Source: a phage
Reading direction: 5' to 3' (one strand)
DNA: 64,000 nucleotides
Sequence record: PZ452609.1
Part shown: positions 2,472 through 55,791 of the stretch, piece after piece
How the letters are laid out: every line of letters starts with the position of its first letter
How positions within the stretch are numbered: the first letter of the stretch is position 1
Notes under the pieces: model-generated
Told to the model about the DNA's origin: nothing
Seen by the model: only the letters and a program-made list of their open reading frames with translations
Databases searched by the model: none
Made by a program: the position numbers and the translations under genes

Positions 2472-2801
2472 TTAATCTGCCAACCTTAAATTGAAATTAA
2501 CACCAAATTTTTCACACACTTCCAACATATACTCAAGAGAGACATTCCCAGTGAGGTGGATTATGTTGGATACACGAGCTTGAGAGATACCACAAATTTT
2601 AGCGACTTGTTCTTGAGAAAGACCTCTGGATTTAATCTCTCTCTTAAAACGATGTGCAACGAAGTCTCTCATTTCGTCTACATCCATTGGACAAATATAA
2701 CTCTCCATTTCAGCCTCTCTATCAGCCTCCCAATCATCTTGTGGAGCATAAGGGTCAAAAACCTCATTCATCTTTCTTCTTCCGTTTACGTGAAGTATCA
2801 A
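2472..2801 (-). CDS. helix-turn-helix DNA-binding protein
   Basis: LSQEQVAKICGISQARVSNI resembles an XRE-type HTH; start may be an internal Met. Confidence 0.45.
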   Translation of the reverse strand: MILHVNGRRKMNEVFDPYAPQDDWEADREAEMESYICPMDVDEMRDFVAHRFKREIKSRGLSQEQVAKICGISQARVSNIIHLTGNVSLEYMLEVCEKFGVNFNLRLAD

Positions 2802-9195: not shown

Positions 9196-9254
9196 TTTTA
9201 CTCCCTCTAAAATCATTAACCCCATACATTACTGCAAAAAATTATAAAAAGCAA

Positions 9255-9278
9255 GTTGACAATGTACTTGACAAGGTG
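9255..9278 (+). promoter_or_regulatory. conserved double TTGACA element (copy 1)
   Basis: gttgacaatgtacttgacaaggtg in the divergent region between the polymerase start and the plus-strand block. Confidence 0.5.
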
Positions 9279-9452
9279 TTAATCTTTGCGAAGTGGGTTT
9301 TTACTTAAAAGGTTACTTAACAGTTTAACTATACAGATACTTTAAAACTCTTAAAAGATTATTTAATAGCTTTTAAAAAGCTTTAAAGTATAACGTATAG
9401 AATACGTTAAGATAAAAGATTAAAACTTAATAGTTACTTAAAAGAGGCTTAC

Positions 9453-27620: not shown

Positions 27621-28502
27621 ATGAAAACATCTATCCGTGTTACAGTTCATTCACCAACTAAAGGGACTCATGAAGAAGAGTTTAACATCGTCCAATTCCC
27701 TTCTGGTGAGATTGGTGGACACTTTTCGCCAGAGTTTGTTGATTTTACTGCTTATGCAGCATCATCCATCAACAATGTGATTATGATTGTAAAAGGTTAT
27801 GACAAGGACACATTGTTTGCTGTGGCACTTGCTAAAGAAGCAATTGATGATTTAATTCCTCATGATTATGCTTTAAAGACTGTCATCTTTTACTACTTAC
27901 CAAATGCACGATATGACCGTCACATGTTTAAAGGTGACGCAGCAGCTTTAAAGGTTTTTGCTAAACAGATTAATGCAATGGGATTTGGCGCAGTCTGTGC
28001 AGTTGACCCTCACAGCTATGTACCAGATAACCTGTTTAACTGCTTCCAGAGTATTCCTCAAAAGGAGATTGCAGTCCACTATGCAAATGACCCACTGGTT
28101 GATTACTTAGTAGCCCCAGATGCAGGTGCTGCTAAGAAGGTTGCAGAGACCGCTAAAGAGGTGGATAAACCATATATCACAATGTCTAAGGTGCGTAACC
28201 TTAAGACTGGTGAAATTACTGGTATGCGAATCCTTGATGATGTTGATTTGACAGATAAAACCGTCATGATTCTGGATGATATCTGTGATGGTGGTCGAAC
28301 CTTCATAGAAGCAGCTAAGCATCTCCGTGAAGCAGGTACAAAACGTGTGGAACTCTATGTAACACATGGTATCTTCTCTAAAGATGTTGAAAACCTTCTT
28401 GACAATGGTATTGACCATATCTACACTACAAACTCTTTAGGGGAAGCTAAAGACCGTGGCTTAACACATTATGGTCAAGTTACTGTAGCAAACCTTGATT
28501 GA
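27621..28502 (+). CDS. ribose-phosphate pyrophosphokinase (Prs)-like enzyme; candidate ADP-ribose pyrophosphokinase
   Basis: PRPP-binding-loop-like ILDDICDGGRT; ATG start with GAGAGAG RBS; immediately upstream of the Nampt-like gene. Confidence 0.7.
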   Translation: MKTSIRVTVHSPTKGTHEEEFNIVQFPSGEIGGHFSPEFVDFTAYAASSINNVIMIVKGYDKDTLFAVALAKEAIDDLIPHDYALKTVIFYYLPNARYDRHMFKGDAAALKVFAKQINAMGFGAVCAVDPHSYVPDNLFNCFQSIPQKEIAVHYANDPLVDYLVAPDAGAAKKVAETAKEVDKPYITMSKVRNLKTGEITGMRILDDVDLTDKTVMILDDICDGGRTFIEAAKHLREAGTKRVELYVTHGIFSKDVENLLDNGIDHIYTTNSLGEAKDRGLTHYGQVTVANLD

Positions 28503-39961: not shown

Positions 39962-40052
39962 TAAAGTACTTTACAAGGGGCTTAAAAGCTGATATCTTAA
40001 GCCCCAGATAAAGAGCTTTACCAAATCAACCCTTAAACTAGGAGATTCAAAA
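39962..40052 (+). promoter_or_regulatory. intergenic cassette type A (conserved-stem hairpin + conserved leader/RBS)
   Basis: taaagtactttacaaggggcttaa..ttaagccccagataaagagctttacc..ctaaactaggagattcaaaa. Confidence 0.6.
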
Positions 40053-40433
40053 ATGGCATATCGTGCACCTAAATTCATCAACAAAGACAACTTTCGCAAC
40101 GCACTGGAGAAGTCACTTGATGAGAATTTTAAAGGTAACGTTATTGTTGTTCACTCGTTTAATTTTAAGTATGATATCAATGGGAATAAAATTAACCATT
40201 ACACGGCGACAATGCTAGATGGTACTCTTTCAAGTGAAAAAGCCATTTTACATGCACTTGCTGGACGTGGTAAAAACCTGATAAGATGCGATAAGAGACG
40301 TTATCAGGGTGGCGCATATGGTTACGATGATGCTGTTTATCATCTTGAAAATATGGGCTATCAAGTAGAAAAAGCTGGAGTGTCTCAAATAATCGGTAGT
40401 GATGGTTATGTAACAATCTTCAAAATTAACTGA
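40053..40433 (+). CDS. small hypothetical protein (array member 2)
   Basis: Conserved leader with GGAG RBS. Confidence 0.5.
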   Translation: MAYRAPKFINKDNFRNALEKSLDENFKGNVIVVHSFNFKYDINGNKINHYTATMLDGTLSSEKAILHALAGRGKNLIRCDKRRYQGGAYGYDDAVYHLENMGYQVEKAGVSQIIGSDGYVTIFKIN

Positions 40434-40521
40434 TAAAGTACTTTACAAGGGGCTTATAGTTCGATAAAGTAAGCCCCAGATAAAGAGCTTTACCACTAAA
40501 TCCTAAATTGGAGATTCAAAA
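40434..40521 (+). promoter_or_regulatory. intergenic cassette type A
   Basis: Same stem as other type A copies, different loop sequence. Confidence 0.6.
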
Positions 40522-40812
40522 ATGGCTACTATCAAAAACGTTGTAATTCCTGTAAAAACTCGTGATGACGCTCGCATCATGGCGAAAAAGTTAGGCGGGA
40601 AAGTGGTTGACAACGGAAAACAATCTGCTGTAAGATGGGGTGTGAAGGCTGATAAACAGTTGAAGTTAAAAAATTCACCAATAAATCTTTTTACATGTGT
40701 AAACACTATCGGAAAGACAAATGTATACACGAAAAAGGCATATATTAGACGCGTAGCCTTAACATCTCCAATTCGTACAATGAGAGGTTATGCAAAGCTG
40801 AAAATTAACTGA
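40522..40812 (+). CDS. small hypothetical protein (array member 3)
   Basis: Conserved leader with GGAG RBS. Confidence 0.5.
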   Translation: MATIKNVVIPVKTRDDARIMAKKLGGKVVDNGKQSAVRWGVKADKQLKLKNSPINLFTCVNTIGKTNVYTKKAYIRRVALTSPIRTMRGYAKLKIN

Positions 40813-40900
40813 TAAAGTACTTTACAAGGGGCTTAAAAGTTGGTATCTTAAGCCCCAGATAAAGAGCTTTACCACTCAATCCTAAACTGGAGATTCAAAA
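40813..40900 (+). promoter_or_regulatory. intergenic cassette type A
   Basis: Same stem, different loop. Confidence 0.6.
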
Positions 40901-41197
40901 ATGAAATTATCAAATAAAGTTCGTGAAAATCTAAGCAAATTACTCAACAAAATTGATTTCATTGAAACATCAAGAAATAGCCATGATGTTATGGAATGGT
41001 TACACGGCAAAATAAAAGGTCGTCGTGTAGTGATTTGCTTATGGAATAGTTGCAGGGAGTATAAAAAACCTGTATTGCAAGTTAATATCTATGATGATAC
41101 TCTTAAAAGTCCTGTCAAATCTAAAAGCGATTTACTAGATTCTTATGAGATAACTGTAAATGGCAAAGTATCACGTAAAGAGGAAGCACCATGTTAA
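40901..41197 (+). CDS. small hypothetical protein (array member 4)
   Basis: Conserved leader with GGAG RBS. Confidence 0.5.
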   Translation: MKLSNKVRENLSKLLNKIDFIETSRNSHDVMEWLHGKIKGRRVVICLWNSCREYKKPVLQVNIYDDTLKSPVKSKSDLLDSYEITVNGKVSRKEEAPC

Positions 41198-41523
41198 TGA
41201 CTGGTATCACTGCAATCATTGCCATTTTCGCGCTCTATAAGGCATATAAAGCCTATAATCTAGCAAATAAGGCAATCACACAACAGGTTAGCAATAGCCT
41301 TGTAATGAGCTTTCTAGAGCGGTTGAGCGATGAACAATTAAAGCGGTTAGAAATGAGCTTCAGATTCAGGGCGAGAACTTATCAAATCAGCGACATTTTC
41401 AAAGATGATTTTCAATTAGTCGATGATTATAATTCTCTGATAAATGCTTTAAATATTAGTGACTTAAAAGACTATCATACTGTAATTGTTCAAGAGTTGA
41501 GCAAACGAAAACAAAACTGTTGA
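41191..41523 (+). CDS. small hypothetical protein (array member 5)
   Basis: Overlapping start with upstream ORF; N-terminal hydrophobic segment. Confidence 0.4.
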   Translation: MLMTGITAIIAIFALYKAYKAYNLANKAITQQVSNSLVMSFLERLSDEQLKRLEMSFRFRARTYQISDIFKDDFQLVDDYNSLINALNISDLKDYHTVIVQELSKRKQNC

Positions 41524-41612
41524 CACTGATTTTTAGATAGATTAAATTACACATCAACGGGGAGGCAATAAACACCCCACTAAATAAAGTCCTTAAACTA
41601 GGAGATTCTAAA
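41524..41612 (+). promoter_or_regulatory. intergenic cassette type B (TTGACA promoter-like box + GGGGAGG hairpin + conserved leader)
   Basis: ttgacactgatttttagatagattaaattacacatcaacggggagg..cccc..taaagtccttaaactaggagattc. Confidence 0.6.
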
Positions 41613-41885
41613 ATGTATACTACTAACAACGGTCGCACTTTAAATGTCACTCTACGTCACTATGTAGACGGTGTGATGCACTTTGAGGATTTACAGGCTG
41701 AGCAACATATCTTAGATTGGCAAGTCGCAGGACTCCAAAAAACTGCTACCGGATACGGCAAAAAGATTCCAACTAGCTGGAAAGTATACTATGAAGGACG
41801 TTTGCGCAGAATTTATCAGGATGTATGTAGCAATAGCACATCAAGTTACATCATAGTAAAAGGTAAAAAACTGCATTTAGTATAA
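41613..41885 (+). CDS. small hypothetical protein (array member 6)
   Basis: Conserved leader with GGAG RBS. Confidence 0.5.
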   Translation: MYTTNNGRTLNVTLRHYVDGVMHFEDLQAEQHILDWQVAGLQKTATGYGKKIPTSWKVYYEGRLRRIYQDVCSNSTSSYIIVKGKKLHLV

Positions 41886-41970
41886 AGTACTTTACAGGGG
41901 GCTTATTAGTCTGTACAGTAAGCCCCAGATAAAGAGCTTTACCACTCAATCCTAAATTGGAGATTCTAAA
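41886..41970 (+). promoter_or_regulatory. intergenic cassette type A
   Basis: Same stem, different loop. Confidence 0.6.
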
Positions 41971-42375
41971 ATGGCTATTAATAATCGTGAGTTGTCAATC
42001 TTAAAAGCACGTTTAACCGTTAATCGAATCAATGTTATTACATCATCAGCACCGGATGAAACATTGCACAACATTATCGGAAAGATTCAAAGCGTTATCT
42101 TAGACGTTGAAAACGTAAAAAACTCATTGGCTGACGTTGCAGCAGGTATCACGCTAGACGGTGCACAATATGAAATGGTCGACATGTTAGGCAAATCTAA
42201 GGTAATGAATAAAGAGTTAGACTTGAAAATGTTTAGATTTGCCGTGAAAGTGTGGCTATCTGTTGAGTATGATGCTAATTTTGCAATCGCTGATTTCTTT
42301 GCCACTTGGTTACAACGTAATTTGGCAAATCATGACTTTCGTGACATCTGCGACGCAATTTATGCAGAACTCTAA
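41971..42375 (+). CDS. small hypothetical protein (array member 7)
   Basis: Conserved leader with GGAG RBS. Confidence 0.5.
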   Translation: MAINNRELSILKARLTVNRINVITSSAPDETLHNIIGKIQSVILDVENVKNSLADVAAGITLDGAQYEMVDMLGKSKVMNKELDLKMFRFAVKVWLSVEYDANFAIADFFATWLQRNLANHDFRDICDAIYAEL

Positions 42376-42476
42376 AAATTTTATTGACACTGATTTTTAG
42401 ATAGATTAAATTACACATCAACGGGGAGGGAATGACCTTCCCCACTAAGTAAAGTCCTTAAACTAGGAGATTCAAA
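42376..42476 (+). promoter_or_regulatory. intergenic cassette type B
   Basis: Near-identical to the 41524 copy including the TTGACA box. Confidence 0.6.
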
Positions 42477-42674
42477 ATGGCTATTATCAACGGTTTAACC
42501 ATTGAAACCACGCACATCAAAGACATTAAAGTTGGTGATGTAGTTCTTTCCCACGGCGTAGAAAAAACAGTCACTGCAAAGGATATCAAAGATGATTCTT
42601 TCATGGGTAGAACTCTCTTCGGTGATTCTTATTGCTTAGGTTATCTTGCAGTTTTAAAAGTTGTCAAAAATTAA
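42477..42674 (+). CDS. small hypothetical protein (array member 8)
   Basis: Conserved leader with GGAG RBS. Confidence 0.45.
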   Translation: MAIINGLTIETTHIKDIKVGDVVLSHGVEKTVTAKDIKDDSFMGRTLFGDSYCLGYLAVLKVVKN

Positions 42675-42767
42675 CTGATAAAGTACTTTACAAGGGGCTT
42701 ATAGTTCGATAAAGTAAGCCCCAGATAAAGAGCTTTACCACTAAATCCTTAAACTAGGAGATTCAAA
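42675..42767 (+). promoter_or_regulatory. intergenic cassette type A
   Basis: Same stem, different loop. Confidence 0.6.
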
Positions 42768-43310
42768 ATGAAATGCTTTCACGGTACTACTCAAGAAAAC
42801 TTTATCAACCTGATTAATAACGGTGATAAACCATCAGGTGTATGGAATTGTTCGGATATGGACGGCAATTTTTACGTGTACCCAGAAAATAAACTCTATG
42901 GTGATGATGAGGAAGAGATAGCATCGGAAGGTATCCAGCAAGCTCTAGGAAATGCCACTATCACGGCAGCTTTTCAGATGAAAACTCAAAATATTGTTAT
43001 CTTAGAACTTGACATTCCAGAGGATGAGCTAAATGATGATTATTCTTGTGATAACATGTCAAATATAGCAAGCTTTACAGAGTACTTTGATGTAAATTGG
43101 ATTAAAAAGGTCTATACAACAGAGTTCAACGCTATGTATTCACCTTTTTGTCTCCCTTCACTGGATAACCCAAATTTAAATTATCTTGATGAAACATTGG
43201 AGCTACTTGCTAAAAGTATCCAACAATCCGACAGTATTCAGGTTTTTTGTGACATCATGGATACACTGACAGAAAACATTGTAGAGAGTGATTTAAAGGT
43301 CTTTTTCTAA
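42768..43310 (+). CDS. hypothetical protein (array member 9)
   Basis: Conserved leader with GGAG RBS. Confidence 0.5.
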   Translation: MKCFHGTTQENFINLINNGDKPSGVWNCSDMDGNFYVYPENKLYGDDEEEIASEGIQQALGNATITAAFQMKTQNIVILELDIPEDELNDDYSCDNMSNIASFTEYFDVNWIKKVYTTEFNAMYSPFCLPSLDNPNLNYLDETLELLAKSIQQSDSIQVFCDIMDTLTENIVESDLKVFF

Positions 43311-43376
43311 AAACCTATACATTCACCTTATAAACACTGATTAACCCCTTACAGGGGCTTTTAGAGGGCTTAAATC

Positions 43377-43610
43377 ATGCTTACAACCATTTATCTCATC
43401 CTTTCCATTTGTAACGGCCATTCATGTGACTTTAAAGGGCTTGAAGAGTTTACAGGAAGTAAAGAAAATGCTATTCAAGTTTGCCAGATAGCAAGACAAG
43501 ACTACCCCGCCAGTGATGATATACAATGTTACTTTAAGACAGAAGATGACGAAGGAATCTATTTCGACAGTGTCGATGGTCAATATGAAATTATCATTGA
43601 AAAAGACTAG
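43377..43610 (+). CDS. small hypothetical protein (array member 10)
   Basis: 77-aa ORF after a hairpin+T-run. Confidence 0.4.
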   Translation: MLTTIYLILSICNGHSCDFKGLEEFTGSKENAIQVCQIARQDYPASDDIQCYFKTEDDEGIYFDSVDGQYEIIIEKD

Positions 43611-43703
43611 ACAAGCCTGATAAAAGTCTGTAAATTATCAATCAACGGGGAGGGAATGACCTTCCCCACTAAGTAAAGTCCTTAAACTAGGAGATTCCAA
43701 AAA
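43611..43703 (+). promoter_or_regulatory. intergenic cassette type B
   Basis: caacggggagggaatgaccttccccactaagtaaagtccttaaactaggagattc. Confidence 0.6.
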
Positions 43704-43952
43704 ATGTATACTAAAACTCAACTAAAAAACATGGTTAGCAATGGCTTAATGGATGAAGTCTATAAAGAGTGTAGACGCTACGGGGAAATTAAGGATAAGA
43801 CTAGTTATGAGTATACCCACACAATAGACTTTAAAACCAATGAGAAGAGGACTGACCTTGTTACTGTAGTAGTGATTGAGTATAAACGAATTATTTGGAC
43901 CTTTGAGCTAGTAAAAGGTGAGTGCACAGAGATAGAATATAAAGACGCTTAA
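43704..43952 (+). CDS. small hypothetical protein (array member 11)
   Basis: Conserved leader with GGAG RBS. Confidence 0.5.
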   Translation: MYTKTQLKNMVSNGLMDEVYKECRRYGEIKDKTSYEYTHTIDFKTNEKRTDLVTVVVIEYKRIIWTFELVKGECTEIEYKDA

Positions 43953-44037
43953 AGTACTTTACATGGGGCTTATTAGTCTGTATAGTAAGCCCCAGATAAA
44001 GAGCTTTACCACTCAATCCTAAACTGGAGATTCTAAA
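43953..44037 (+). promoter_or_regulatory. intergenic cassette type A
   Basis: Same stem, different loop. Confidence 0.6.
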
Positions 44038-44379: not shown

Positions 44380-44519
44380 TCAATAACTTACAAAAAACTT
44401 TTAAAAAAGTGTTGACAATACCCATTGACATTGGTAACTTTGTTCGAGGGGGTTATCTAAAAGGGATTCACTTAATAGATTCTTTATAGATAAACTTAAA
44501 AAATTGCTTGCAAAGGCAA

Positions 44520-45779: not shown

Positions 45780-46478
45780 TCGACGCAGCGGGGCTAAATA
45801 GCCCCAGATACCTGAAAAGCTCCTTCTCATAGGGGCTTTTTTACGTCTATAAAGAGACTCTATACAATCCCTTTCCTTTCCTTCCTAGAATCTATCCCGT
45901 ACCTTAAAAGCAATAACTCTATAGCTTACTCTATAACCCCTTATCAAATCAACTTAAATATAAGCCCATAACCCGAAAGGGAAGGGCAACCATTTAAACG
46001 CTCTATAAAGCCCTATAACAGCCTTATCAACCTAACTTAAGCAATCATATTAACCCACTCTAAAAAGCCCTTTATAGAGCTTTCTAGAGCCTTAAAAGAA
46101 TCTTATAAGGGTGTGAGCTTTATCATCTCGTTAGCTATCTTGTGAACTACTAAAAAGGGCTTGTTAGTGTCTTAAAAGTATGTTATAGGGGCTATAAAGT
46201 TACTTTGAAGTAGCTTAAAAGTTACGTAAATGCTAGCCCCCTTAACATTTTCTTAACAATTTCTTAACAATCCCTACATAGTTATGCTTTTAAGGCACTT
46301 GTTAGCAACTTGTTAGCCCCTTGTTAAATCTCTGTTAAGACCACGTAAAAGCCTTGTAAGAACCTTTGACATAGCCTTAAAAGCTCCTGTAAAGCCCTAT
46401 AAAGAGCTATCCATACAGTTGAGGGGTAGATACTAGGAAGAGGCTTAAAAGAGCTTACAAGGAGCTATAGAGAGCTTT

Positions 46479-46599
46479 TAAAAGGTATGTTTAGAGAATC
46501 ACTAAGAGAGAAAGGGAACGATAAGAAAAGAGATAGTGACCATGTTAATAGCTTGTTAAAAAGATTAAACACTTGTTAGGAACTTGTTAATTATCTTAA
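46479..46599. repeat. direct repeat copy 1 flanking the N gap
   Basis: About 120 bp identical to 46700-46818. Confidence 0.8.
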
Positions 46600-46699
46600 N
46601 NNNNNNNNNNNNNNNNNNNNNNNNNNNNNNNNNNNNNNNNNNNNNNNNNNNNNNNNNNNNNNNNNNNNNNNNNNNNNNNNNNNNNNNNNNNNNNNNNNN
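46600..46699. other. assembly gap (100 N)
   Basis: Run of exactly 100 n. Confidence 0.95.
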
Positions 46700-46818
46700 T
46701 AAAAGGTATGTTTAGAGAATCACTAAGAGAGAAAGGGAACGATAAGAAAAGAGATAGTGACCATGTTAATAGCTTGTTAAAAAGATTAAACACTTGTTAG
46801 GAACTTGTTAATTATCTT
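46700..46818. repeat. direct repeat copy 2 flanking the N gap
   Basis: Identical to 46479-46599. Confidence 0.8.
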
Positions 46819-47652
46819 AACAAAATAACTCTTTAAAATTAACTTGTTAGCTCTTGTTAGTTATCTGTTAAGATTCTGTAAAGCCCTACCAAAGCTTGTT
46901 AGAAAACTGTTAAGTTCTTGTTAGTTCTGTTAAGAAACTGTTAAGACCTTTGAAGAGATGTTAAGAGCTTGAGAGAGTTGTTAAGATGTTGTTAAGGATA
47001 TTTTAAAATTTTGCAAAGTACTTGTAAGGGAGCTGTTAAGGGCTACCAAGCAGATATACATCTTCTACAGATATTTTTGAGTTCCTTCAAAGACCCTAAA
47101 AAATGACTTGACAGTCTTATTTTATAAAAATTTTAAAATTCTGAATAATTACTTATACAGTCTTTTAAAAATACAGGTAGAAACAGGCTTATAAGATACC
47201 TTGTTAGTACCGTGTTAGACCTTGTGAGATAAGGTCTGTAAAGATATTCCTGTTAAGTTTGTTAAAACAGTCTATATAGAGGCTTAGTAGTGCCTAGTGA
47301 ACACCTATAGAGAGTATCATAGCTGACATAGAGATTAAGGGGTGTATAGAGGCTTCTAAGAGCGTATAGAGAGATGGTTAAGGTGATTGTATAGGTTGTT
47401 AAGAAGGCTTGTTAGAAGAGTGTTTAGAGGGCTATTTAGAAGGGTTATACAGAGGGGCTATTAAGACCACTAGATAGTTACTAAGACACTATATAGTACT
47501 ATATAACTATATATAGAGAGTAAGATTAAGAAGGTTGTTAAGAAGGATAGATATTTTATTCACATATGATGGTGACCCAGAGGTTGGAACAACCGATAAA
47601 ATTTTTATAAAAATTAAAAAAAGCCCCCAATTAAGGAGGCTCTTAAGATATT

Positions 47653-48276
47653 TTAAATCAGTGTTTCCAGAACTGTTTTTAGTGATGACTTGGTTGTCTG
47701 ATAAAAATGAGTAAAGCCGTTGTTATTATCGAATACCTGCATCATGATATCATCTCCCTTGATTGGGTACACTCGGATATCATAGTGAAAACCATTAAAG
47801 ACACAAGAGCCATTACAGAATGCACTAAAGTCATCCACTGAGATATACTCTTCATGTCCTGTGATTTTTATACAGATACCTTTACTCGGTCTCTTAGGAT
47901 TAATATCTTCCATCACAGACATATTCTGTCCACCAAGAGATACCATAGTGACCACTTTACGGTTCTTCTGTCTAAAGTACATCTTAACTTTCTGCAAAGT
48001 GTCTTCATAGAATGGATAAGACCTATCTACAAAGATTCCTTCAAGTGGCTCTTTACCATTTTCAACTTCTCGGTTATGCCGTACTGCAAAGATAATTTGT
48101 TCGAACCAGTCAAGATTTTCTTCGGAGAGTGCTTCCCGAACATCCTTCCAGTCAAGGACTAGATAGTTACCTTCAACATCTTTTAAGTTATCTTTTTCCA
48201 TATCTATCACACCATTATCGTAAAACTTGATATTCTGGTACTGCGAATTTATTACTATTGTTCTTGATGAGGTCAT
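47653..48276 (-). CDS. hypothetical protein
   Basis: 207-aa ORF. Confidence 0.45.
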   Translation of the reverse strand: MTSSRTIVINSQYQNIKFYDNGVIDMEKDNLKDVEGNYLVLDWKDVREALSEENLDWFEQIIFAVRHNREVENGKEPLEGIFVDRSYPFYEDTLQKVKMYFRQKNRKVVTMVSLGGQNMSVMEDINPKRPSKGICIKITGHEEYISVDDFSAFCNGSCVFNGFHYDIRVYPIKGDDIMMQVFDNNNGFTHFYQTTKSSLKTVLETLI

Positions 48277-48679
48277 CCTCTGAAACTAAAAATGTAATAC
48301 CACATAAGTGTCTGTAACGACTATCATACTCGAATATCTTAAACAGATATTTACCATCATGATAAACCTGTTGCACTTCACCTTCTGCAACAATCTCGCC
48401 TGTAATAAAATTTTTTAGTTTATACACATTACCGACCTTAGGTACTGTTTTCATCTCAGGCTCTTTTAGTGCTACACCTATTTTTACATCACCGAGTAAA
48501 TGAGAACTCTCAAAAGCTACGTGTTTCATATAGGCTTCTGAGCATTCCCAAATAAAACAATGTACAAGAACCTTAGCAGCATGTCTTGAGCAGTTCAACT
48601 TATCACAAATTTCTGTGTACATCTCATCTTTAGTAGAATTATCAAGCATTGCTCTTTGCACTACTTCTTTAATTTTCAT
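48215..48679 (-). CDS. hypothetical protein
   Basis: 154-aa ORF; 3' end overlaps downstream ORF. Confidence 0.4.
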   Translation of the reverse strand: MKIKEVVQRAMLDNSTKDEMYTEICDKLNCSRHAAKVLVHCFIWECSEAYMKHVAFESSHLLGDVKIGVALKEPEMKTVPKVGNVYKLKNFITGEIVAEGEVQQVYHDGKYLFKIFEYDSRYRHLCGITFLVSEDDLIKNNSNKFAVPEYQVLR

Positions 48680-49091
48680 AAGCTCTCCGAATAATCCTAT
48701 TAAGCATCTCTAAAGTCAGCTTTCCAGATTCTAAATGCGGCATAACAAGCTTTAAAGCTTTTTCAACATCATGCACAATATCAATTATACCTTCTTCATA
48801 GGCTTCTACGAGGATATCTTTTACACCGATATAGCCTTCATTGATAATGATTTGCATATCAAAATCTTCTGATTGCTTGTTTAACTTACCTCTCCAATAC
48901 CCATCAGCATTAAAAGATATCACTTCACACTCTTTAAAATCCATATCATCTGCATGGAATGGAGTAATTATTGTGCATTGGATTGGGTACTCTACACCAG
49001 TGGTGTCAACATCAAAGACCTTCACAGAAGTAAGTGGTTTCTTTGTTTTAGAGCAGTAAACTGTCAATCTTTTACCAATAAGCTCTTTCAT
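48669..49091 (-). CDS. hypothetical protein
   Basis: 140-aa ORF. Confidence 0.45.
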   Translation of the reverse strand: MKELIGKRLTVYCSKTKKPLTSVKVFDVDTTGVEYPIQCTIITPFHADDMDFKECEVISFNADGYWRGKLNKQSEDFDMQIIINEGYIGVKDILVEAYEEGIIDIVHDVEKALKLVMPHLESGKLTLEMLNRIIRRAYEN

Positions 49092-49143
49092 TTCGCTACC
49101 TTCTAAGTTCTACAAAGGGGCTATCAAGTAACCCCTCAAGCTA

Positions 49144-49368
49144 CTACTCAGACTTTTCAGTCTTCTTATCGGATTTCTTACTAGTCTTCTTCTCAGCTTT
49201 CTGTTCAGGTTCCTTCTCAGAAGTTGCCTTGATAACCATATCAAGAAGCTCTGATAAGTCACTCTTCAGCAAAGTAACAGGTTGCTCGTTGTAGAAGTTT
49301 TTGTCAAGGTAAACTTTGAACTCTTCTATAGAAGGAAATCCAAAAATTGGTACAGGCGTCTTAATCAT
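49144..49368 (-). CDS. hypothetical protein
   Basis: 74 aa with Lys/Glu-rich C-terminus. Confidence 0.35.
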   Translation of the reverse strand: MIKTPVPIFGFPSIEEFKVYLDKNFYNEQPVTLLKSDLSELLDMVIKATSEKEPEQKAEKKTSKKSDKKTEKSE

Positions 49369-49444
49369 TACTTAGTCTCTCCATAGGCATCTTTTAAGAT
49401 TGCCTTGTTAATCATTTCAGCGATTGCAAAACGAACACATACAG

Positions 49445-49978
49445 CTATAATTGTAGGTTGCATTCTTTACTTACCTCTTCAAGTTTAACCTCGGAATCCT
49501 TAAGTCGTTTCTTATGAACTCTGAATCTTATTAGTGAGATGATAATACCAGCTAAAGGAACAGTATACAAGTACCAGATATCATGTAGCTTTGCAGTAAT
49601 CTGTGTAATTGTCAAATCTTGAGCTATGCAGCTAATTGCTGATACTGCCAGTAACATTGCTAAGAAGAAAGCCAGTATCATAACAATATTCAGACAACCT
49701 CTGGCATGGTATTCATGCTTAATGCACTTATTCTTTTCGTCAACAACCCTGTTGTAGTCGTTTGTAAAGTCTCTGTAGAAAGCTTTCAAGTATTCTTGAG
49801 TGTAGCCTTCAAAGCAACCTGTACCATACCAATAATCACCACCAAAATGTGCTATGATACCGGTATCTCCATTTGGTTTGGTTACTCTTAAAGAGACATG
49901 ATGACCAGTCTTCTGGTAATCTATCTTATATCTTTCTTCGTAAATCATTTTCCAACCCCTCTCAATCTCTTGTTCCAT
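49445..49978 (-). CDS. membrane protein
   Basis: Internal hydrophobic segments (NIVMILAFFLAMLLAVSAISCIA). Confidence 0.45.
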   Translation of the reverse strand: MEQEIERGWKMIYEERYKIDYQKTGHHVSLRVTKPNGDTGIIAHFGGDYWYGTGCFEGYTQEYLKAFYRDFTNDYNRVVDEKNKCIKHEYHARGCLNIVMILAFFLAMLLAVSAISCIAQDLTITQITAKLHDIWYLYTVPLAGIIISLIRFRVHKKRLKDSEVKLEEVSKECNLQL

Positions 49979-50163
49979 TCAAGGTCAACAAATCTTTGCA
50001 GAACTTTTCCTCTAGGTGTTACACCTTTTAAATCTGCATCGTAACAATGGTAAAAGTCACCTTCAGCGTGTTTACCATAGCATTTTCTGATATTCTGGCT
50101 TCTGCGATACTGTTCTAACAAGGACAGTTTGTAGTAATCTTCAACTGTAGTTAGTTTTTTCAT
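49945..50163 (-). CDS. hypothetical protein
   Basis: 72-aa ORF. Confidence 0.35.
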   Translation of the reverse strand: MKKLTTVEDYYKLSLLEQYRRSQNIRKCYGKHAEGDFYHCYDADLKGVTPRGKVLQRFVDLEWNKRLRGVGK

Positions 50164-50705
50164 TCTTTCACCATAGCGTTTCTGAACTGGCGTTGTGTTT
50201 CTCTTGTAATTTCGTTTGGGGTAAACCCTGCTTTTAGCATATCTCTGAAAAGAACTTCTAAGTGGTCCCTCTCAATGATGTAAATAGCATTCTGAATAGC
50301 TGTTTTACGCTCCTTCAGGTCGCTGCTAATCTCTTCGCACTTGCTTGTAAGTTCTGTGTCAACTTTCTTATAGACTGGCATAACATGTGCATAACAGCCT
50401 TTATTGGTCTCCATGAAGAATTTAAAAGATTCCTCAGAGTCCTTTAAAGCAATCCCTATAAAGTTTTTGTAAGCACCTGTGAAAGATAAGGACTCAATCT
50501 CAGCAGTCGAGTATACAGTTCCAGCACACAGTCTTGCAGAAGTACTAAATGTGTGGTTTGGTGTTGTGTCAAAGTCTAAGTTCTTCAGTGGTTGAAAATA
50601 AACTGTTCCATTGTGTGAGATGTGTGTTACAACAGCCTCAACACTCTTTGAAGGATTCTGTTTAACATACAAAATAATTTTATCGTGTTCTTTCACTTTA
50701 GCCAT
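50160..50705 (-). CDS. hypothetical protein
   Basis: 181-aa ORF. Confidence 0.45.
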   Translation of the reverse strand: MAKVKEHDKIILYVKQNPSKSVEAVVTHISHNGTVYFQPLKNLDFDTTPNHTFSTSARLCAGTVYSTAEIESLSFTGAYKNFIGIALKDSEESFKFFMETNKGCYAHVMPVYKKVDTELTSKCEEISSDLKERKTAIQNAIYIIERDHLEVLFRDMLKAGFTPNEITRETQRQFRNAMVKE

Positions 50706-50777
50706 ATCTATTCTCCAGAAACTAAAAAGGGAACTACCTCTCGATAGCTCCCATCATAATCAATATTGTATACTCGG

Positions 50778-51359
50778 TCAAGAGTATTTTTTAGGCAGTA
50801 ATGCACTGCGCTTGTTACTCTCTTCACTCAACAGTGCGATAAATTCATCACCTTTACCCTTCCACGGACTAAATGTAGGGATGTGTTCTCTGATAGCATC
50901 AATCACTGTTTTCAGGGCGTTATTTTTTAACCACCAATCAGACACTGCCGAAGCTACAATATAATAAGCACCATCATCTGTGAAGATTGGCTCAGAGATA
51001 CATGGTGAAATCATAGTGGTAATGATAGAGCCATTATTCATGTAGTATGTTCTTTTTTCAACCTTATCAAGAAGCTTATGTAGGTCTGCAAAGAGACTCA
51101 CAACCTCTTTATGGTCAATATCTTTTTCAAGATTTGCTCTGTATTTCAGTAGTGCAGCATCAACCTCTTTATCATTGAATTTGAAGTATTGTACTTCTTC
51201 ATTCACGCATACACTGATGTTGTTAGTGTTTATCGTCAATTTGCACAGTTTGACTGGAGAATTGATGTTAGTCTGAAAAAGTGCTACACAGCCTTCTACA
51301 TTTCCGAAATGTTTTACTAATGTAACTTCTGGTTGGATATGCTCATGTTCTTCTGACAT
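50778..51359 (-). CDS. hypothetical protein
   Basis: 193-aa ORF. Confidence 0.45.
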   Translation of the reverse strand: MSEEHEHIQPEVTLVKHFGNVEGCVALFQTNINSPVKLCKLTINTNNISVCVNEEVQYFKFNDKEVDAALLKYRANLEKDIDHKEVVSLFADLHKLLDKVEKRTYYMNNGSIITTMISPCISEPIFTDDGAYYIVASAVSDWWLKNNALKTVIDAIREHIPTFSPWKGKGDEFIALLSEESNKRSALLPKKYS

Positions 51360-51703
51360 TACAGTTTCCTCATTAAATACTTTTTAAGTTGTGTGTTAGG
51401 TTTCTCAAAAACTTCTATAGAAGATATCTTAACAGATTCACCACGCATACCAGTATGTTTGAATATGTAGTACTCTAACATCCCTATATACTTTGCTGGT
51501 AAGTCATGCTTGACATACACCGTCACAGAATCTTCAAACTCAACAACCTTTGTACCATCTTTGTAGTTAAACTCTTTAGGATGGTTGTAGTTGTCTATGT
51601 CATACATTAAAAAGAGTCTTTTACGTTGTAAGTCAAGCTTATTTGTTAAAGACTCTTTGATATCTGAGAAGTTTTTGTAAACTGTGACATGGAGCTTACT
51701 CAT
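51359..51703 (-). CDS. hypothetical protein
   Basis: 114-aa ORF. Confidence 0.4.
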   Translation of the reverse strand: MSKLHVTVYKNFSDIKESLTNKLDLQRKRLFLMYDIDNYNHPKEFNYKDGTKVVEFEDSVTVYVKHDLPAKYIGMLEYYIFKHTGMRGESVKISSIEVFEKPNTQLKKYLMRKL

Positions 51704-51989
51704 CGTTAAACTCTCTGACGAAGAAATAGTTGACTTTGTTATTACCTACCATAAGGTCAAAGCAGGTATTTTCAAAAGGCTTGTTGTAGGCATCGTATGA
51801 AACATATGGGTCAGCTACTTGCTTAGTGCTTAACTTCTTACTTGATGGATTTAAGAGGCCACCATACAGCTTCTTGATAGCCTCTTCTACAACAGACCAG
51901 ATAATTTCGTCAGTAATTTCTTCGTACAGGTCAAGTTCACGCTCTAGTGAGAAGTCACAAATAGGGAAAACAACCTGTACTTTACTCAT
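51696..51989 (-). CDS. hypothetical protein
   Basis: 97-aa ORF. Confidence 0.4.
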   Translation of the reverse strand: MSKVQVVFPICDFSLERELDLYEEITDEIIWSVVEEAIKKLYGGLLNPSSKKLSTKQVADPYVSYDAYNKPFENTCFDLMVGNNKVNYFFVREFNDE

Positions 51990-52378
51990 TAACGAATAAC
52001 CTGTGAGACTTGAATTGCTTCAGTTACAGACAAATCACCAACTTTCTCTTCTTTGATAAAAGTGAATGTGAGTTCAACAGGCTCTTGCTCTTCTTGCTCA
52101 ACTGGAATGCCATTAAGCTCATCGCGGATTGATTGAGTTGTCCAGTCTTCTCCACCATCTGGATAATGGATGGCGTAAAGAGGAAACTCCATGTCATACC
52201 AGCCAAATACAGGGCAACCATCTGCATCATCTCGCATTCTGCGAAGGGTGCTACCTGAGCCTGTAAAGCGAAGACTAATATTTCCATTACACTCAAAAAT
52301 CACTGCGTCAGCAAGTCCAGCATCTTCTCGACCATCATGGCCAAAGGTGTCAACTTTTACTTGAATCTCTTTATTCAT
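51989..52378 (-). CDS. hypothetical protein
   Basis: 129-aa ORF. Confidence 0.4.
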   Translation of the reverse strand: MNKEIQVKVDTFGHDGREDAGLADAVIFECNGNISLRFTGSGSTLRRMRDDADGCPVFGWYDMEFPLYAIHYPDGGEDWTTQSIRDELNGIPVEQEEQEPVELTFTFIKEEKVGDLSVTEAIQVSQVIR

Positions 52379-52769
52379 AAAAACCTCTCTCTGCTTGTTC
52401 TATTTTTGCTCTTAAAGCTTCGCAATGTTGTAAATGATAGTTAGCTTCTTGTTCATGTGTTGCTAACTGCCTTTCCAGAACAGTTTTATAATAACTTGCG
52501 AGTTGCTCTTTTGTCAATGGGTGCTCTGAAATAATATCAAGTCCACTTTCACCAAGAGGGTTGAATTGTCCATGTTCGTTGACATTGTAAGTCTCAAACT
52601 TGAACAGGCCATTGTTCACAGACTCAATAGGTGACAGCTCAACAAGCTCTACAGTAAACCGTGTATATACCTTGTCACCTCTTGAAACCACATTGTTCCC
52701 GACAATGCGTACAAGCGAGCCATTACGAGTGTACTTAAAAGTTCCAAAGTCACTAGCCCAAAGTTTCAT
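52371..52769 (-). CDS. hypothetical protein
   Basis: 132-aa ORF. Confidence 0.4.
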   Translation of the reverse strand: MKLWASDFGTFKYTRNGSLVRIVGNNVVSRGDKVYTRFTVELVELSPIESVNNGLFKFETYNVNEHGQFNPLGESGLDIISEHPLTKEQLASYYKTVLERQLATHEQEANYHLQHCEALRAKIEQAERGFYE

Positions 52770-52783
52770 AGCTTTCTCCTTAG

Positions 52784-52810
52784 AAAATAAAAAAGGCTCC
52801 CGAAGGAGCC
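52784..52810 (-). terminator. rho-independent terminator on the minus strand downstream of lysozyme
   Basis: Minus-strand reading ggctcc-ttcg-ggagcc then tttttt. Confidence 0.55.
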
Positions 52811-52820
52811 TATGAAGATA

Positions 52821-53285
52821 TTACTTTGGGTATACACTGTCAAGATAAATGTCAGCTTCCATTCTACGTCTGTTTTTCAGACCGTTTGAAGTGACCTTCT
52901 TACCTTTGACTGTAACCTTGTTCCACCACTGCATAGCTTCTGCACAACCTACCTTATTACCAGCATTGTGGCGCTTGATAAATGTGGAATCCTGCATAGC
53001 TGTGATACCGATGTTGTATGTTTCACTTACAAGTGCATCGAACTCATTCTGAGTAGTTGGAACCTTGATAGCTTTGTTCACTGCTGCAACAAACTTCTCA
53101 ACATCCGCGAGAAGATACTGTTCAGCTTGTTCAGCAGTAATTTTCATACCCATCTTAACAGGTTTTCCGTCAATACGGATTGTCCCATACCCGATTGTTG
53201 GGATTCCGGCAGAATCTTCGTAAGCCTCTAACTCCAGACCTTCGAAGAACTTAATAGCATCTAAACCTTTTCTTGAGAGTTGCAT
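52821..53285 (-). CDS. endolysin, T4-type lysozyme (GH24)
   Basis: N-terminal FEGLELEAYEDSAGIPTIGYG..T contains the catalytic E-(8 aa)-D-(5 aa)-T spacing of GH24 lysozymes. Confidence 0.75.
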   Translation of the reverse strand: MQLSRKGLDAIKFFEGLELEAYEDSAGIPTIGYGTIRIDGKPVKMGMKITAEQAEQYLLADVEKFVAAVNKAIKVPTTQNEFDALVSETYNIGITAMQDSTFIKRHNAGNKVGCAEAMQWWNKVTVKGKKVTSNGLKNRRRMEADIYLDSVYPK

Positions 53286-54166
53286 TACGCCTCCCCTGCT
53301 GGGTTAACTGTAACTGTTGCTGCATTGGATGTTACAGAGCCACCTGCACCAGTAACTACACAGGTGTAGCTTCCTGCATCAGCAGCGGTCGCACCTTCTT
53401 TGGTGTAAGTTGCAGTAGTTGCATCAAGGATGTCTTCCTCACCTTTCTTCCACTGGTAACCTGTCGCACCTGTTGCCACAACATTCAGCGTTAAGGTCTC
53501 ACCTTCATTGATTTCTTGATTGGTTGGCTGTTGAGTGATTACCGGAAGTGCGTTAACAGTAACCGTTGCAGGGCTAGAAGTGACAGAACCACCTGCACCT
53601 GTTACAACGCAAGTGTATGAACCTGCATCAGAAGGTTCTACAGACTGTTTTGTGTAGGTTGCAGATGTGGCGCTAGTGATATCCTCACCATCCTTTTTCC
53701 ATTGATATCCAGTGGCATTAGTTGCAATAACGCTTAGGGTAAGTGTACCACCTTCATTTACTGTTTGATTGGTTGGTTGCTGAGTGATTGATGGTGGCTT
53801 GATAGCGTCCTTCAACTTAGCATTCAACATTGAGAATGGTTTAACTCTTGCCAGCCATTCACAATAAACTGTATCAACGTCTTTACCATTGATAATTGCA
53901 TATTGTAAGTCCATGAAGAAGTCAGAAGTTCTCATTTGAGCACCAACACTGTAAAGCAACTCATCACTAAATGGGACTTTATAGTCTGGTTTATAGTCAA
54001 ACTTCTCAACTTCTGCAATATCAGCTTCAGGCCAATACGAGCTATAGGTAAGTGGTAAAATAGCCTCTTGATATGTTCTAAAATCATACCTCTTACCAGC
54101 CTTTACGTTTGCAATGAAGCCCTTCACAAACTCTTTGAAGTCTGGGTAAGTCTTTGCTTTAATCAT
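53285..54166 (-). CDS. protein with two tandem Ig-like domains fused to a paralog-type N-terminal domain
   Basis: Two about 88-aa repeats (PxITQQPTNQ..NEG.TLTL.V.ATGATGYQWKK..GSYTCVVTGAGGSVTS); N-terminal 120 aa resemble the adjacent 123-aa ORF. Confidence 0.55.
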   Translation of the reverse strand: MIKAKTYPDFKEFVKGFIANVKAGKRYDFRTYQEAILPLTYSSYWPEADIAEVEKFDYKPDYKVPFSDELLYSVGAQMRTSDFFMDLQYAIINGKDVDTVYCEWLARVKPFSMLNAKLKDAIKPPSITQQPTNQTVNEGGTLTLSVIATNATGYQWKKDGEDITSATSATYTKQSVEPSDAGSYTCVVTGAGGSVTSSPATVTVNALPVITQQPTNQEINEGETLTLNVVATGATGYQWKKGEEDILDATTATYTKEGATAADAGSYTCVVTGAGGSVTSNAATVTVNPAGEA

Positions 54167-55563: not shown

Positions 55564-55640
55564 GGCAGACCTACAGCTTTAAGTAAGATGGTACAGTAAT
55601 CCATACAACAAGTCAAGAACTATTGCAAGTTAAAAAAGTT

Positions 55641-55664
55641 GTTGACAAAGTACTTGACAAGGTG
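55641..55664 (+). promoter_or_regulatory. conserved double TTGACA element (copy 2)
   Basis: gttgacaaagtacttgacaaggtg, 23 of 24 identical to copy 1, in the second divergent region. Confidence 0.5.
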
Positions 55665-55791
55665 TAGGCTTATAAATACTTAGAAGATAACTTAAAAGGT
55701 TCCTCTAAAAAGGCTATTTAAACAGATATCTTTCTGGATATCTATCTTTTATCTTAAAAGCCTTTTAAGAGGTCTTATAAGAGGCATACCA

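What the first reader, a model, noticed from the sequence alone, without database searches (positions are those of the whole stretch)
9255..9278. Near-identical 24-bp double TTGACA element at both divergent intergenic regions
gttgacaaTgtacttgacaaggtg at 9255 and gttgacaaAgtacttgacaaggtg at 55641 both sit where a minus-strand block and a plus-strand block diverge. A related double-box occurs at about 44410. Two -35-like hexamers 12 bp apart suggest a specialised early promoter or a shared regulator-binding site.
Basis: seen in the sequence. Interest (0 to 1): 0.55.

Follow-up and report, generated by a model that had tools for sequence, protein, structure and literature searches.

The report
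Conserved double-TTGACA promoter core in phage
The repeated 24-base element is the core of a host-type promoter at the head of two large operons of a Felix O1-like phage; its second TTGACA lies inside the promoter spacer, is strictly conserved, recurs in unrelated phages, and has no known job.

Summary
The window is a Felixounavirus (Felix O1-like myovirus). The 24-mer occurs exactly twice, at 9255-9278 and 55641-55664, in the two divergent intergenic regions. A third double box lies at 44412-44430.

Comparative evidence supports a sigma70-type promoter firing rightward. The upstream TTGACA is the -35: it follows an A-tract and has a TAnnnT -10 hexamer 17-18 bp downstream. These key positions are invariant across four or more Ounavirinae lineages.

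The downstream TTGACA sits inside the spacer and has no -10 of its own, yet it is equally invariant while the bases around it drift. Its offset from the first box varies from 10 to 13 bp among orthologues and paralogues. Erwinia and Pectobacterium relatives have only the single box.

The same frame (A-tract, TTGACA, N4-6, TTGACA, TAnnnT) is over-represented in IMG/VR viral contigs. It gave at least 120 stretches at periods 11 and 12, against 18 for a composition-matched control hexamer. It also turns up in bacterial genomes (no control scan there).

This favours an RNA-polymerase-linked spacer element over a Felix-specific operator. No start sites have been mapped. The upstream box had already been predicted as a promoter in silico; the double architecture had not been described in what I could search.

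The parts
9246..9250 (+). A-tract (UP-element-like) immediately upstream of the IG1 -35
   Evidence: Sequence. The same AAAAAG..G context precedes many other predicted TTGACA promoters in the window.
9256..9261 (+). IG1 box 1: TTGACA, the inferred -35 hexamer of the rightward promoter
   Evidence: Invariant in Felixounavirus, Suspvirus, Mooglevirus and Hafnia phage; a single TTGACA sits at the same place in Erwinia phage. The PWM pairs it with TAATCT at N18 for 10.8 bits. GenBank MZ726792 annotates a predicted promoter here.
9262..9267 (+). IG1 inter-box spacer (ATGTAC), free to vary
   Evidence: Seen as ATGTAC, ATGCAC, ATACAC, ATGCGC, ATTCAC, AATCAC and AACCAC in relatives, while both hexamers stay fixed.
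9268..9273 (+). IG1 box 2: TTGACA inside the promoter spacer (about -24 to -19); conserved, role unknown
   Evidence: Invariant in all relatives that carry it. No -10-like hexamer 15-19 bp downstream. Absent from the Erwinia phage IG1.
9277..9285 (+). IG1 TGt + TAATCT: extended -10 and -10 hexamer (9280-9285); predicted start near 9292
   Evidence: TAATCT here, TAGTCT (with TGg) in Mooglevirus, TAATGT in Hafnia phage, TACATT in Erwinia phage: T, A and final T are kept.
9303..9312 (+). ACTTAAAAGG in the initially transcribed region (about +12), shared with IG2
   Evidence: Related CT(T/A)AA(A/T/C)AG is kept in Hafnia and Erwinia phages.
9226..9254 (-). Candidate leftward promoter for the DNA polymerase gene: TTGCTT (9254-9249), N17, TAATGT (9231-9226); weak
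   Evidence: PWM 6.3 bits. AAGCAA is invariant, and TAATGT becomes TAGGGT in Mooglevirus. Inference only.
55632..55637 (+). A-tract (UP-element-like) upstream of the IG2 -35
55642..55647 (+). IG2 box 1: TTGACA, the inferred -35 hexamer of the rightward promoter (the 'P41' site of the Felix O1 paper)
   Evidence: Invariant across genera. PWM 11.7 bits with TAGGCT at N17. P41 is listed in PMC3185647.
55654..55659 (+). IG2 box 2: TTGACA inside the spacer
   Evidence: Invariant, while the six bases before it vary: AAGTAC, AAGGAC, AATGAC, TTCCTC, AGCCTC, AGGGGA. In Hafnia phage IG2 the offset is 11 bp rather than 12.
55665..55670 (+). IG2 -10 hexamer TAGGCT; predicted start near 55677
   Evidence: TAGGCT, TAGCCT and TAGTGT in other genera; TACTCT in Hafnia phage.
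55690..55699 (+). ACTTAAAAGG at about +14
55588..55616 (-). Leftward promoter candidate: TTGACT (55616-55611), N17, TACCAT (55593-55588)
   Evidence: 12.0 bits; invariant in four genera.
44403..44440 (+). Third double-box promoter: A-tract, TTGACA (44412-44417), N7, TTGACA (44425-44430), TGg, TAACTT (44435-44440)
   Evidence: 12.7 bits. Orthologues in Felixounavirus, Suspvirus and Mooglevirus contigs keep both hexamers and the T, A and final T of the -10, while everything between them varies.
28399..28427 (+). Near-copy of the architecture: TTGACA-N6-TTGACC-N5-TACACT, inside the end of prs and upstream of the NAPRT gene
   Evidence: 13.3 bits. Conservation in other genera was not tested.

Best explanation
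The 24-mer is the -35 and spacer core of a sigma70-type promoter read by host RNA polymerase and firing rightward (window + strand). One copy heads the replication/nucleotide-metabolism unit (from 9453). The other heads the unit that starts with the DUF5681 gene at 55792 and runs into the tRNA, terminase and structural genes.

The upstream TTGACA is the -35. It is preceded by an UP-like A-tract and followed at 17-18 bp by a weak TAnnnT -10: TGtTAATCT at 9277-9285 and TAGGCT at 55665-55670. Predicted starts are near 9292 and 55677.

The downstream TTGACA lies inside the spacer, about one helical turn (10-13 bp) after the -35 and 4-7 bp before the -10. It has no -10 of its own. I take it to be a selected auxiliary promoter element, most likely a second docking register for sigma70 region 4 that alters polymerase capture or occupancy at these promoters. 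A third promoter at 44412 has the same design.

Shown here: the promoter frame, its conservation, and recurrence of the design elsewhere. Inferred: use by E-sigma70, the start sites, and above all the role of box 2.
For: Promoter frame in the window:
- A PWM scan puts box 1 with TAnnnT at or above the 99.99th percentile of the window in all three sites, at 10.8, 11.7 and 12.7 bits.
- The A-tract context AAAAAG(N)TG-TTGACA is shared with many single-box predicted promoters in the window.

Footprint across relatives:
- Both hexamers, and the T, A and final T of the -10, are invariant in Felixounavirus, Suspvirus and Mooglevirus.
- The inter-box bases, the bases between box 2 and the -10, and the inner -10 bases vary.
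- Hafnia phages keep the design with offsets of 10 bp (IG1) and 11 bp (IG2), while box 1 to -10 stays at 17.
- Erwinia phage IG1 keeps a single TTGACA-N18-TACATT.

Box 2 has no -10 partner, either here or in general: 0/75, 5/71 and 4/39 viral instances have one, against 2/13 in the control.

Recurrence outside this phage group:
- With ACAGTT in place of box 2 the scan gave 18 stretches in 12 clusters.
- Carriers include marine T4-like contigs with no protein similarity to this phage.
- The pattern also occurs in many bacterial genomes, although there was no control scan for that collection.
Against: - No transcription start has been mapped for any Felix O1-like phage in the literature I could search.
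- The -10 hexamers are weak (2.5-2.9 bits).
- My PWM was written from memory of published sigma70 frequencies.
- No known RNA polymerase contact reads bases at -24 to -19, so the proposed role of box 2 has no structural precedent.
- The IMG/VR counts at periods 11 and 12 are truncated, and many hits are orthologous loci. The cluster-level excess is only about 2-4 fold.
- An unproductive second -35 could equally lower promoter activity.
- Felix O1 RT-PCR places the flanking genes at 25 min, not at 5 min as a plain strong sigma70 promoter would predict.
Confidence: 0.6

Rival explanations
1. Box 2, or the pair of boxes, is an operator for a phage-encoded regulator that co-regulates the three promoters by sitting on the -35 and spacer. 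One candidate is the 99-aa HTH_3 protein at 2475-2771 (- strand).
For: Box 2 is invariant although the sigma70 model gives it no role. Only three promoters in the whole genome carry a perfect pair. An XRE-type HTH protein is encoded in the polymerase operon and is conserved in Felixounavirus, Suspvirus and Mooglevirus. The flanking genes share a 25-min expression peak in Felix O1.
Against: The offset between boxes is 10, 11, 12 or 13 bp in different orthologues and paralogues, which is hard to fit to a rigid tandem dimer. What is conserved is exactly the sigma70 -35 consensus. The same frame recurs in unrelated phages and in bacteria that lack these proteins. Hafnia phages have the double box but no tblastn-detectable homologue of the HTH protein. 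XRE proteins usually bind palindromes.
Confidence: 0.2
2. Two overlapping tandem promoters: each TTGACA is a -35 with its own -10, giving two starts about 12 nt apart.
For: There are two perfect -35 hexamers. In IG2, box 2 is followed at N15 by AATACT, scoring 7.0 bits.
Against: IG1, the 44412 promoter, the Hafnia orthologues and the unrelated carriers have no -10-like hexamer 15-19 bp after box 2. Across viral instances, the share with TAnnnT at N16-18 after box 2 is at background: 0/75, 5/71 and 4/39, against 2/13 in the control.
Confidence: 0.07
3. Box 2 is a relic of a 12-bp tandem duplication of the -35 module, with no function of its own.
For: In IG2, AAGTTGTTGACA and AAGTACTTGACA are 10/12 identical. 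Some bacterial instances are obvious fresh 12-bp duplications, for example AAGTCGTTGACA repeated twice.
Against: The hexamer is invariant over several genera and about 300 genomes, while adjacent spacer bases turn over. It is also over-represented relative to a composition-matched hexamer.
Confidence: 0.08
4. The element is a replication origin or iteron, or an RNA element such as a terminator or hairpin, rather than a promoter.
For: It lies in divergent intergenic regions where origins often sit. TTGACAA is a near-palindrome, so two copies could pair.
Against: There are only two repeats per site. The element folds no better than shuffles on either strand, with z from +0.1 to +1.9. No terminator-like site was found. 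The conserved frame is that of a promoter.
Confidence: 0.03

Closest known systems
Strong phage early promoters read by host E-sigma70 ('uber' UP/-35/TGn/-10 promoters of T4; T7 A1; lambda PL), as reviewed in PMC2988021
   Same: An A-rich upstream tract, a consensus -35, TGn in two of the three promoters, and a TAnnnT -10. The review notes that T4 early promoters carry extra conserved positions of unknown meaning.
   Different: A complete second TTGACA lies inside the spacer. The -10 hexamers are weak. In Felix O1 the flanking genes peak at 25 min rather than immediately.
Predicted promoter P41 of Felix O1 (Whichard et al. 2010, PMC3185647) and the predicted promoter annotated in GenBank MZ726792
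   Same: They use the same upstream TTGACA at the same two intergenic sites.
   Different: They pair it with other -10 choices (N15 TATAGG; N16 GTTAAT). Neither mentions the second hexamer. The paper states that no homologous promoter was found in the 96-97 intergenic region, which is IG1 here. All of these are in-silico predictions only.
PeSL (promoter-early stem-loop) cassettes of T4-type phages (PMC2839356, PMC4122927)
   Same: They are repeated, conserved sigma70-like promoter modules in phage genomes. The small-gene region of this window (39966-43954) carries six promoter repeats with a GGGGCTT/AAGCCCC stem around the -10, which fit this description.
   Different: The double-box element has no stem-loop. 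It sits at core operon heads, not in the hyperplastic small-gene region.
Protein-binding elements placed between -35 and -10: lambda operators in PR/PL, and the Q-binding element of lambda PR' with its extra -35-like TTGACT (cited from my own knowledge; I did not check this)
   Same: A conserved element lies inside the promoter spacer. Lambda PR' also uses a second -35-like hexamer bound by sigma region 4.
   Different: The element here is not a palindrome. In PR' the extra hexamer lies downstream of the -10. None of the 10 window proteins scanned against Pfam matched a Q, CI or Cro family, apart from one generic HTH_3 protein.
T4 MotA/AsiA-dependent middle promoters
   Same: A TAnnnT -10 plus an upstream box, and a middle-time expression peak for the flanking genes.
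   Different: The MotA box is TGCTT centred at -30 and replaces the -35, whereas here a consensus -35 is present. The Felix O1 paper reports no polymerase-modifying factors.

Membership tests
sigma70-type (-35/-10) bacterial promoter | -35 hexamer close to TTGACA | tested here: met
   Perfect TTGACA at 9256, 55642 and 44412.
sigma70-type (-35/-10) bacterial promoter | -10 hexamer with A at position 2 and T at position 6, 17 +/- 1 bp downstream | tested here: met
   TAATCT at N18 (with TGt), TAGGCT at N17, TAACTT at N17 (with TGg). T, A and the final T are kept in every orthologue examined. The tool's stricter consensus scan did not call them, because only 3-4 of 6 bases match in the -10.
sigma70-type (-35/-10) bacterial promoter | Oriented toward, and upstream of, a transcription unit | tested here: met
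   All three point into co-directional genes, at 9453, 55792 and 44601.
sigma70-type (-35/-10) bacterial promoter | Transcription start 6-8 nt after the -10; open complex with E-sigma70 | not testable with these tools
   No start-site data for Ounavirinae were found.
PeSL cassette (promoter-early stem-loop) | Stem-loop joined to the early promoter | tested here: not met
   The element does not fold better than shuffles on either strand.
Repressor operator (lambda-type) within a promoter | Dyad-symmetric or fixed-spacing site with a cognate DNA-binding protein | tested here: inconclusive
   The boxes are direct repeats, not a dyad, and the spacing varies from 10 to 13 bp. One HTH_3 protein exists, but its distribution does not match that of the double box. 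Binding is not testable here.
T4 MotA-dependent middle promoter | MotA box (TGCTT) centred at -30 in place of a -35 | tested here: not met
   A consensus -35 is present, and there is no TGCTT at -30 on the + strand.
Lambdoid Q-loading promoter | Q-family antiterminator gene plus a sigma-dependent pause element in the first 25 nt | not tested
   Only 10 window proteins were scanned against Pfam, and none matched a Q family. ACTTAAAAGG at +12/+14 is conserved, but it is not a clear -10-like pause element.

The most novel reading that the evidence does not exclude
A second TTGACA placed about one helical turn downstream of the -35, inside the spacer, is a previously unrecognised functional promoter element. 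It has been selected independently in Felix O1-like phages, marine T4-like phages and some bacteria. It would give sigma region 4 (or a factor that mimics it) a second docking register, and so tune polymerase capture, promoter occupancy or timing. Together with the conserved CTTAAAAG element at +12/+14, it could even mark loading sites for a processive (antitermination-type) modification of polymerase at the heads of the long, terminator-rich operons.
Probability: 0.25. Interest if true: 0.75.

Novelty: new variant of a known kind. Interest (0 to 1): 0.5.

Why it matters
How Felix O1-like phages time their transcription is an openly stated unknown. They are widely used for Salmonella and E. 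coli typing and biocontrol. They encode no RNA polymerase and no known polymerase-modifying factor, yet they show early, middle and late expression (PMC3185647).

The finding gives three precisely placed, deeply conserved promoter cores that share an unexplained element, so the question becomes directly testable with simple mutants.

More generally, the spacer of sigma70 promoters is treated as largely sequence-neutral. A full -35 hexamer that is conserved and over-represented there, at 10-12 bp from the real -35, would add a new element to promoter architecture. If it proves functional it would also be useful for promoter design.

Tried and rejected
- Box 2 as the true -35, with box 1 as an upstream element. 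The idea came from resemblance to the early-promoter repeats CTGATAAAGTAC-TTTACA-AGG. Rejected: there is no -10 at N15-19 after box 2 in IG1, the 44412 promoter, Hafnia phage or the unrelated carriers, whereas box 1 always has TAnnnT at N17/18.
- RNA hairpin or intrinsic terminator on either strand. Rejected.
- The minus-strand reading of the boxes (TTGTCA) as a shared -35 for leftward promoters. This gives a candidate only in IG2 (N18 AATAGT with TG, 8.5 bits), so it is not a common feature.
- By-eye comparison with the Pho box, FNR, and sigma54, sigma32 and sigmaE consensus sequences, from my own knowledge. None fits; these were not formal tests.
- Host origin. There is no similar sequence in 5,426 complete E. 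coli genomes at E <= 1.
- Phyletic profile of the HTH_3 protein against the double box. They do not coincide: Hafnia phages have the boxes but no detectable homologue.
- Literature searches for start-site or RNA-seq data on Felixounavirus, and for descriptions of in-spacer or tandem -35 elements. Nothing relevant was found.
- The first loose IMG/VR pattern, TTGACA-N6-TTGACAAGNTG. It was dominated by chance and coding hits, but it exposed the first unrelated carriers.
- The bacterial-genome scan could not be controlled, because only one scan is allowed, so it is descriptive only.
- Cross-genus conservation of the near-copies at 28399 and 13740 could not be assessed with the loci in hand.

Full report
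**What the window is.** An 8-kb stretch around the first copy matches 275 phage records, nearly all Felix O1-like myoviruses (Felixounavirus), at about 95% identity. The second intergenic region is 100% identical to E. coli O157 typing phage 1, KP869100. The ORF map and the annotation of relatives show the four transcription blocks described for Felix O1. In window coordinates they are:
- a leftward block ending with the DNA polymerase gene (start 9195);
- a long rightward block, 9453 to about 45800, covering replication, nucleotide and NAD metabolism and many small early genes;
- a leftward block, 47653-55543, that includes the lysozyme gene;
- a rightward block from 55792, covering a DUF5681 gene, a DUF2828/DUF7788 gene and tRNAs, and continuing beyond the window into terminase and structural genes.

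**The observation.** Nothing else in the window, or in the complete genome of typing phage 1, comes within three mismatches, against 0 expected. The element at 44412-44430 is a perfect TTGACA-N7-TTGACA. Three perfect pairs at 9-15 bp periods compare with 0.285 expected.

**Which hexamer is the -35.** Neither site passes the tool's strict consensus scan, because the -10 hexamers are weak. I scored all positions with a position-weight matrix written from my memory of published sigma70 frequencies. It pairs the upstream hexamer with a TAnnnT hexamer at 17-18 bp in all three sites:
- TTGACA-N18-TAATCT, preceded by TGt, 10.8 bits;
- TTGACA-N17-TAGGCT, 11.7 bits;
- TTGACA-N17-TAACTT, preceded by TGg, 12.7 bits.

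All three are at or above the 99.99th percentile of the window. The downstream hexamer has no comparable partner, apart from a weak AATACT at N15 in IG2. The upstream hexamer is preceded by AAAAAG(N)TG. The same A-rich context stands before many single-box predicted promoters in the window, for example at 3795 (- strand), 56176, 57679, 57770 and 59311.

**Comparative footprint.** Alignments of IG1 and IG2 with Suspvirus (SUSP2) and Mooglevirus (Moogle, Mordin, ESh22) show both hexamers invariant while the six bases between them change freely. Within Felixounavirus the intergenic regions are 97-100% identical, and one of the few clusters of variable positions is this inter-box spacer.

The -10 positions T, A and final T are kept, while the inner bases vary: TAATCT/TAGTCT in IG1 and TAGGCT/TAGCCT/TAGTGT in IG2. 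Orthologues of the 44412 promoter in three genera show the same pattern. Both hexamers are fixed; the inter-box heptamer and the four bases before the -10 vary; the -10 reads TAACTT, TAATGT, TAGATT or TACATT.

More distant relatives are the most informative:
- Hafnia phages keep the double box with an offset of 10 bp in IG1 (TTGACA-N4-TTGACA-N7-TAATGT) and 11 bp in IG2 (TTGACA-N5-TTGACA-N6-TACTCT). The box-1-to-(-10) distance stays at 17 while box 2 moves within the spacer.
- Erwinia phages have a single TTGACA-N18-TACATT in IG1 and two separate conventional promoters in IG2.
- Pectobacterium phage Wc4-1 has a single box.

The promoter is therefore ancestral in Ounavirinae. The in-spacer hexamer is a conserved addition in the lineages infecting Escherichia, Salmonella, Citrobacter, Shigella and Hafnia.

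**What box 2 is not.**
- It is not the -35 of a second promoter, for lack of a -10.
- It is not part of an RNA hairpin or terminator; folding on either strand is no better than shuffles.
- It is not copied from the host; nothing similar exists in 5,426 E. coli genomes.
- A rigid tandem-dimer operator is hard to fit to offsets of 10, 11, 12 and 13 bp.
- The only recognisable DNA-binding protein among the 10 window proteins scanned is an HTH_3 protein in the polymerase operon. It is found in Felixounavirus, Suspvirus and Mooglevirus, but tblastn does not detect it in the Hafnia phages that carry the double box.

**Recurrence outside this phage group.** A loose IMG/VR pattern search turned up contigs with no protein similarity to this phage that carry almost the same 35-44 nt. 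One example is AAAAAAAGTTG-TTGACA-AAGAGC-TTGACA-AGGTG-TACATT. Two of these contigs encode a gp55-type late sigma factor and resemble marine T4-like phages.

I then scanned IMG/VR for the full frame AAAA-N4-TTGACA-Nx-TTGACA-Ny-TAnnnT with a total spacer of 17. I clustered the hits by their flanks to discount orthologues.

| Second hexamer and period | Stretches | Flank clusters |
|---|---|---|
| TTGACA, period 10 | 58 | 32 |
| TTGACA, period 13 | 37 | 8 (nearly all orthologues of the 44412 promoter) |
| ACAGTT control, period 12 | 18 | 12 |

In these instances, too, box 2 lacks a -10 of its own. Examples include a conserved Streptococcus sanguinis locus, a family in gut Alphaproteobacteria, and many Clostridia. 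I had no control scan for that collection, so this result is descriptive only. Some bacterial cases are plain 12-bp tandem duplications. In IG2 the two 12-mers AAGTTGTTGACA and AAGTACTTGACA are 10/12 identical, which hints at how the design arises.

**Interpretation.** Three things are shown: a sigma70-type promoter frame built on the upstream hexamer, strong purifying selection on both hexamers, and recurrence of the design. Three things are inferred: use by E-sigma70, starts near 9292, 55677 and 44447, and the role of box 2.

I favour a polymerase-linked role for box 2, namely a second docking register for sigma region 4 roughly one helical turn downstream. My reasons are that what is conserved is exactly the -35 consensus, that its position is flexible within 10-13 bp, and that the design recurs in unrelated phages and in bacteria. 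I hold this part at about 0.3, and the promoter reading itself at about 0.8.

A phage-encoded repressor or timing factor remains the main rival. It would fit two facts better: only three promoters in the genome carry the pair, and in Felix O1 RT-PCR the flanking genes (ORFs 41, 42, 96-99) peak at 25 min, whereas the small early genes peak at 5 min.

**Relation to what is known.**
- The Felix O1 genome paper listed 'P41' (TTGACA-N15-TATAGG) at the IG2 site. It stated that no other homologous promoter was found in the two divergent regions and that temporal control is unknown.
- One GenBank record annotates a predicted promoter on box 1 of IG1.
- Neither source notes the second hexamer or the sharing between the two regions.
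- I found no description of in-spacer -35 repeats in the searchable library.
- The nearest described classes are the strong multi-element early promoters of T4 and PeSL cassettes. PeSL cassettes fit the neighbouring early-promoter repeats at 39966-43954, not this element.

I rate the finding as a new variant of a known kind.

**Limits.**
- No experimental start sites exist.
- The PWM comes from memory.
- The collection scans are truncated at 120 rows, and de-replication is only crude.
- The bacterial scan has no control.
- Conservation of the near-copies at 28399 and 13740 in other genera was not tested.

Noticed in passing
window 46600-46699 and flanks 46479-46599 / 46700-46820: A run of 100 N is flanked by a 121-bp direct repeat. 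It looks like an assembly join or terminal redundancy placed inside the gene-free stretch.
   Followed up: partly
window about 45850-47600: A 1.7-kb stretch between the convergent blocks has no ORF of 80 aa or more. It is packed with short repeats (CTTGTTA(R), CTGTTAAG, CTTAAAAG, CTATAAAG). It may hold the genome ends, a packaging or origin region, or a binding array.
   Followed up: no
window-wide; e.g. 9304, 9350, 9437, 28516, 55691, 55753, 45903-46451: CTTAAAAG occurs 33 times against 5.5 expected, mostly co-oriented with transcription. ACTTAAAAGG lies at +12/+14 of both predicted intergenic starts, and CTAAAAGG at about +10 of the 44412 promoter. Related motifs are kept in Hafnia and Erwinia phages. 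Function unknown.
   Followed up: partly
window 39966, 40438, 40817, 41887, 42683, 43954 (+): Six copies of an early-promoter repeat: GTAC-TTTACA-aGGGGCTT-N-TAnnnT-AAGCCCC-AGATAAAGAGCTTTACCAC. The -10 sits in the loop of a GGGGCTT/AAGCCCC inverted repeat. They match the 57-bp repeats of the Felix O1 paper and resemble the PeSL cassettes of T4-type phages.
   Followed up: partly
window 41520, 42384, 45106, 44508 (+): A second promoter-repeat family: TTGACA-N17-TAAATT followed by CAACGGGGAGG. It corresponds to the 39-bp repeats of the Felix O1 paper.
   Followed up: no
window 9392-9408; 55724-55743; 55753-55769: Conserved palindromes lie in the two long 5' leaders. AACGTAT-AGA-ATACGTT in IG1 changes to ATGTAT..ATACAT on both arms in Mooglevirus. 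AGATATC-TTTCTG-GATATCT and CTTAAAAG-C-CTTTTAAG in IG2 are invariant across genera. Both intergenic regions are more conserved than the flanking genes.
   Followed up: partly
window 28387-28427 (+): Three -35-like hexamers at a 12-bp period (TTGAAA, TTGACA, TTGACC), then TACACT. They lie inside the 3' end of prs, upstream of the nicotinate phosphoribosyltransferase gene.
   Followed up: no
L135 11966-12020; L086 2755-2812 and many IMG/VR loci (L188-L296): In marine T4-like contigs a highly conserved double-TTGACA promoter sits immediately upstream of the gp55 late-sigma gene and points away from it, antisense to the preceding DUF6561 gene.
   Followed up: partly
L541, L542, L545, L550, L554 and similar (gut Alphaproteobacteria MAGs); L536, L567, L586 (Streptococcus sanguinis): Bacterial loci carry conserved double or triple TTGACA(A) repeats at a period of 12-14 bp in a promoter frame. 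The S. sanguinis one is followed by a TTAACCAGTTAATAAACTGGTTAA palindrome.
   Followed up: no
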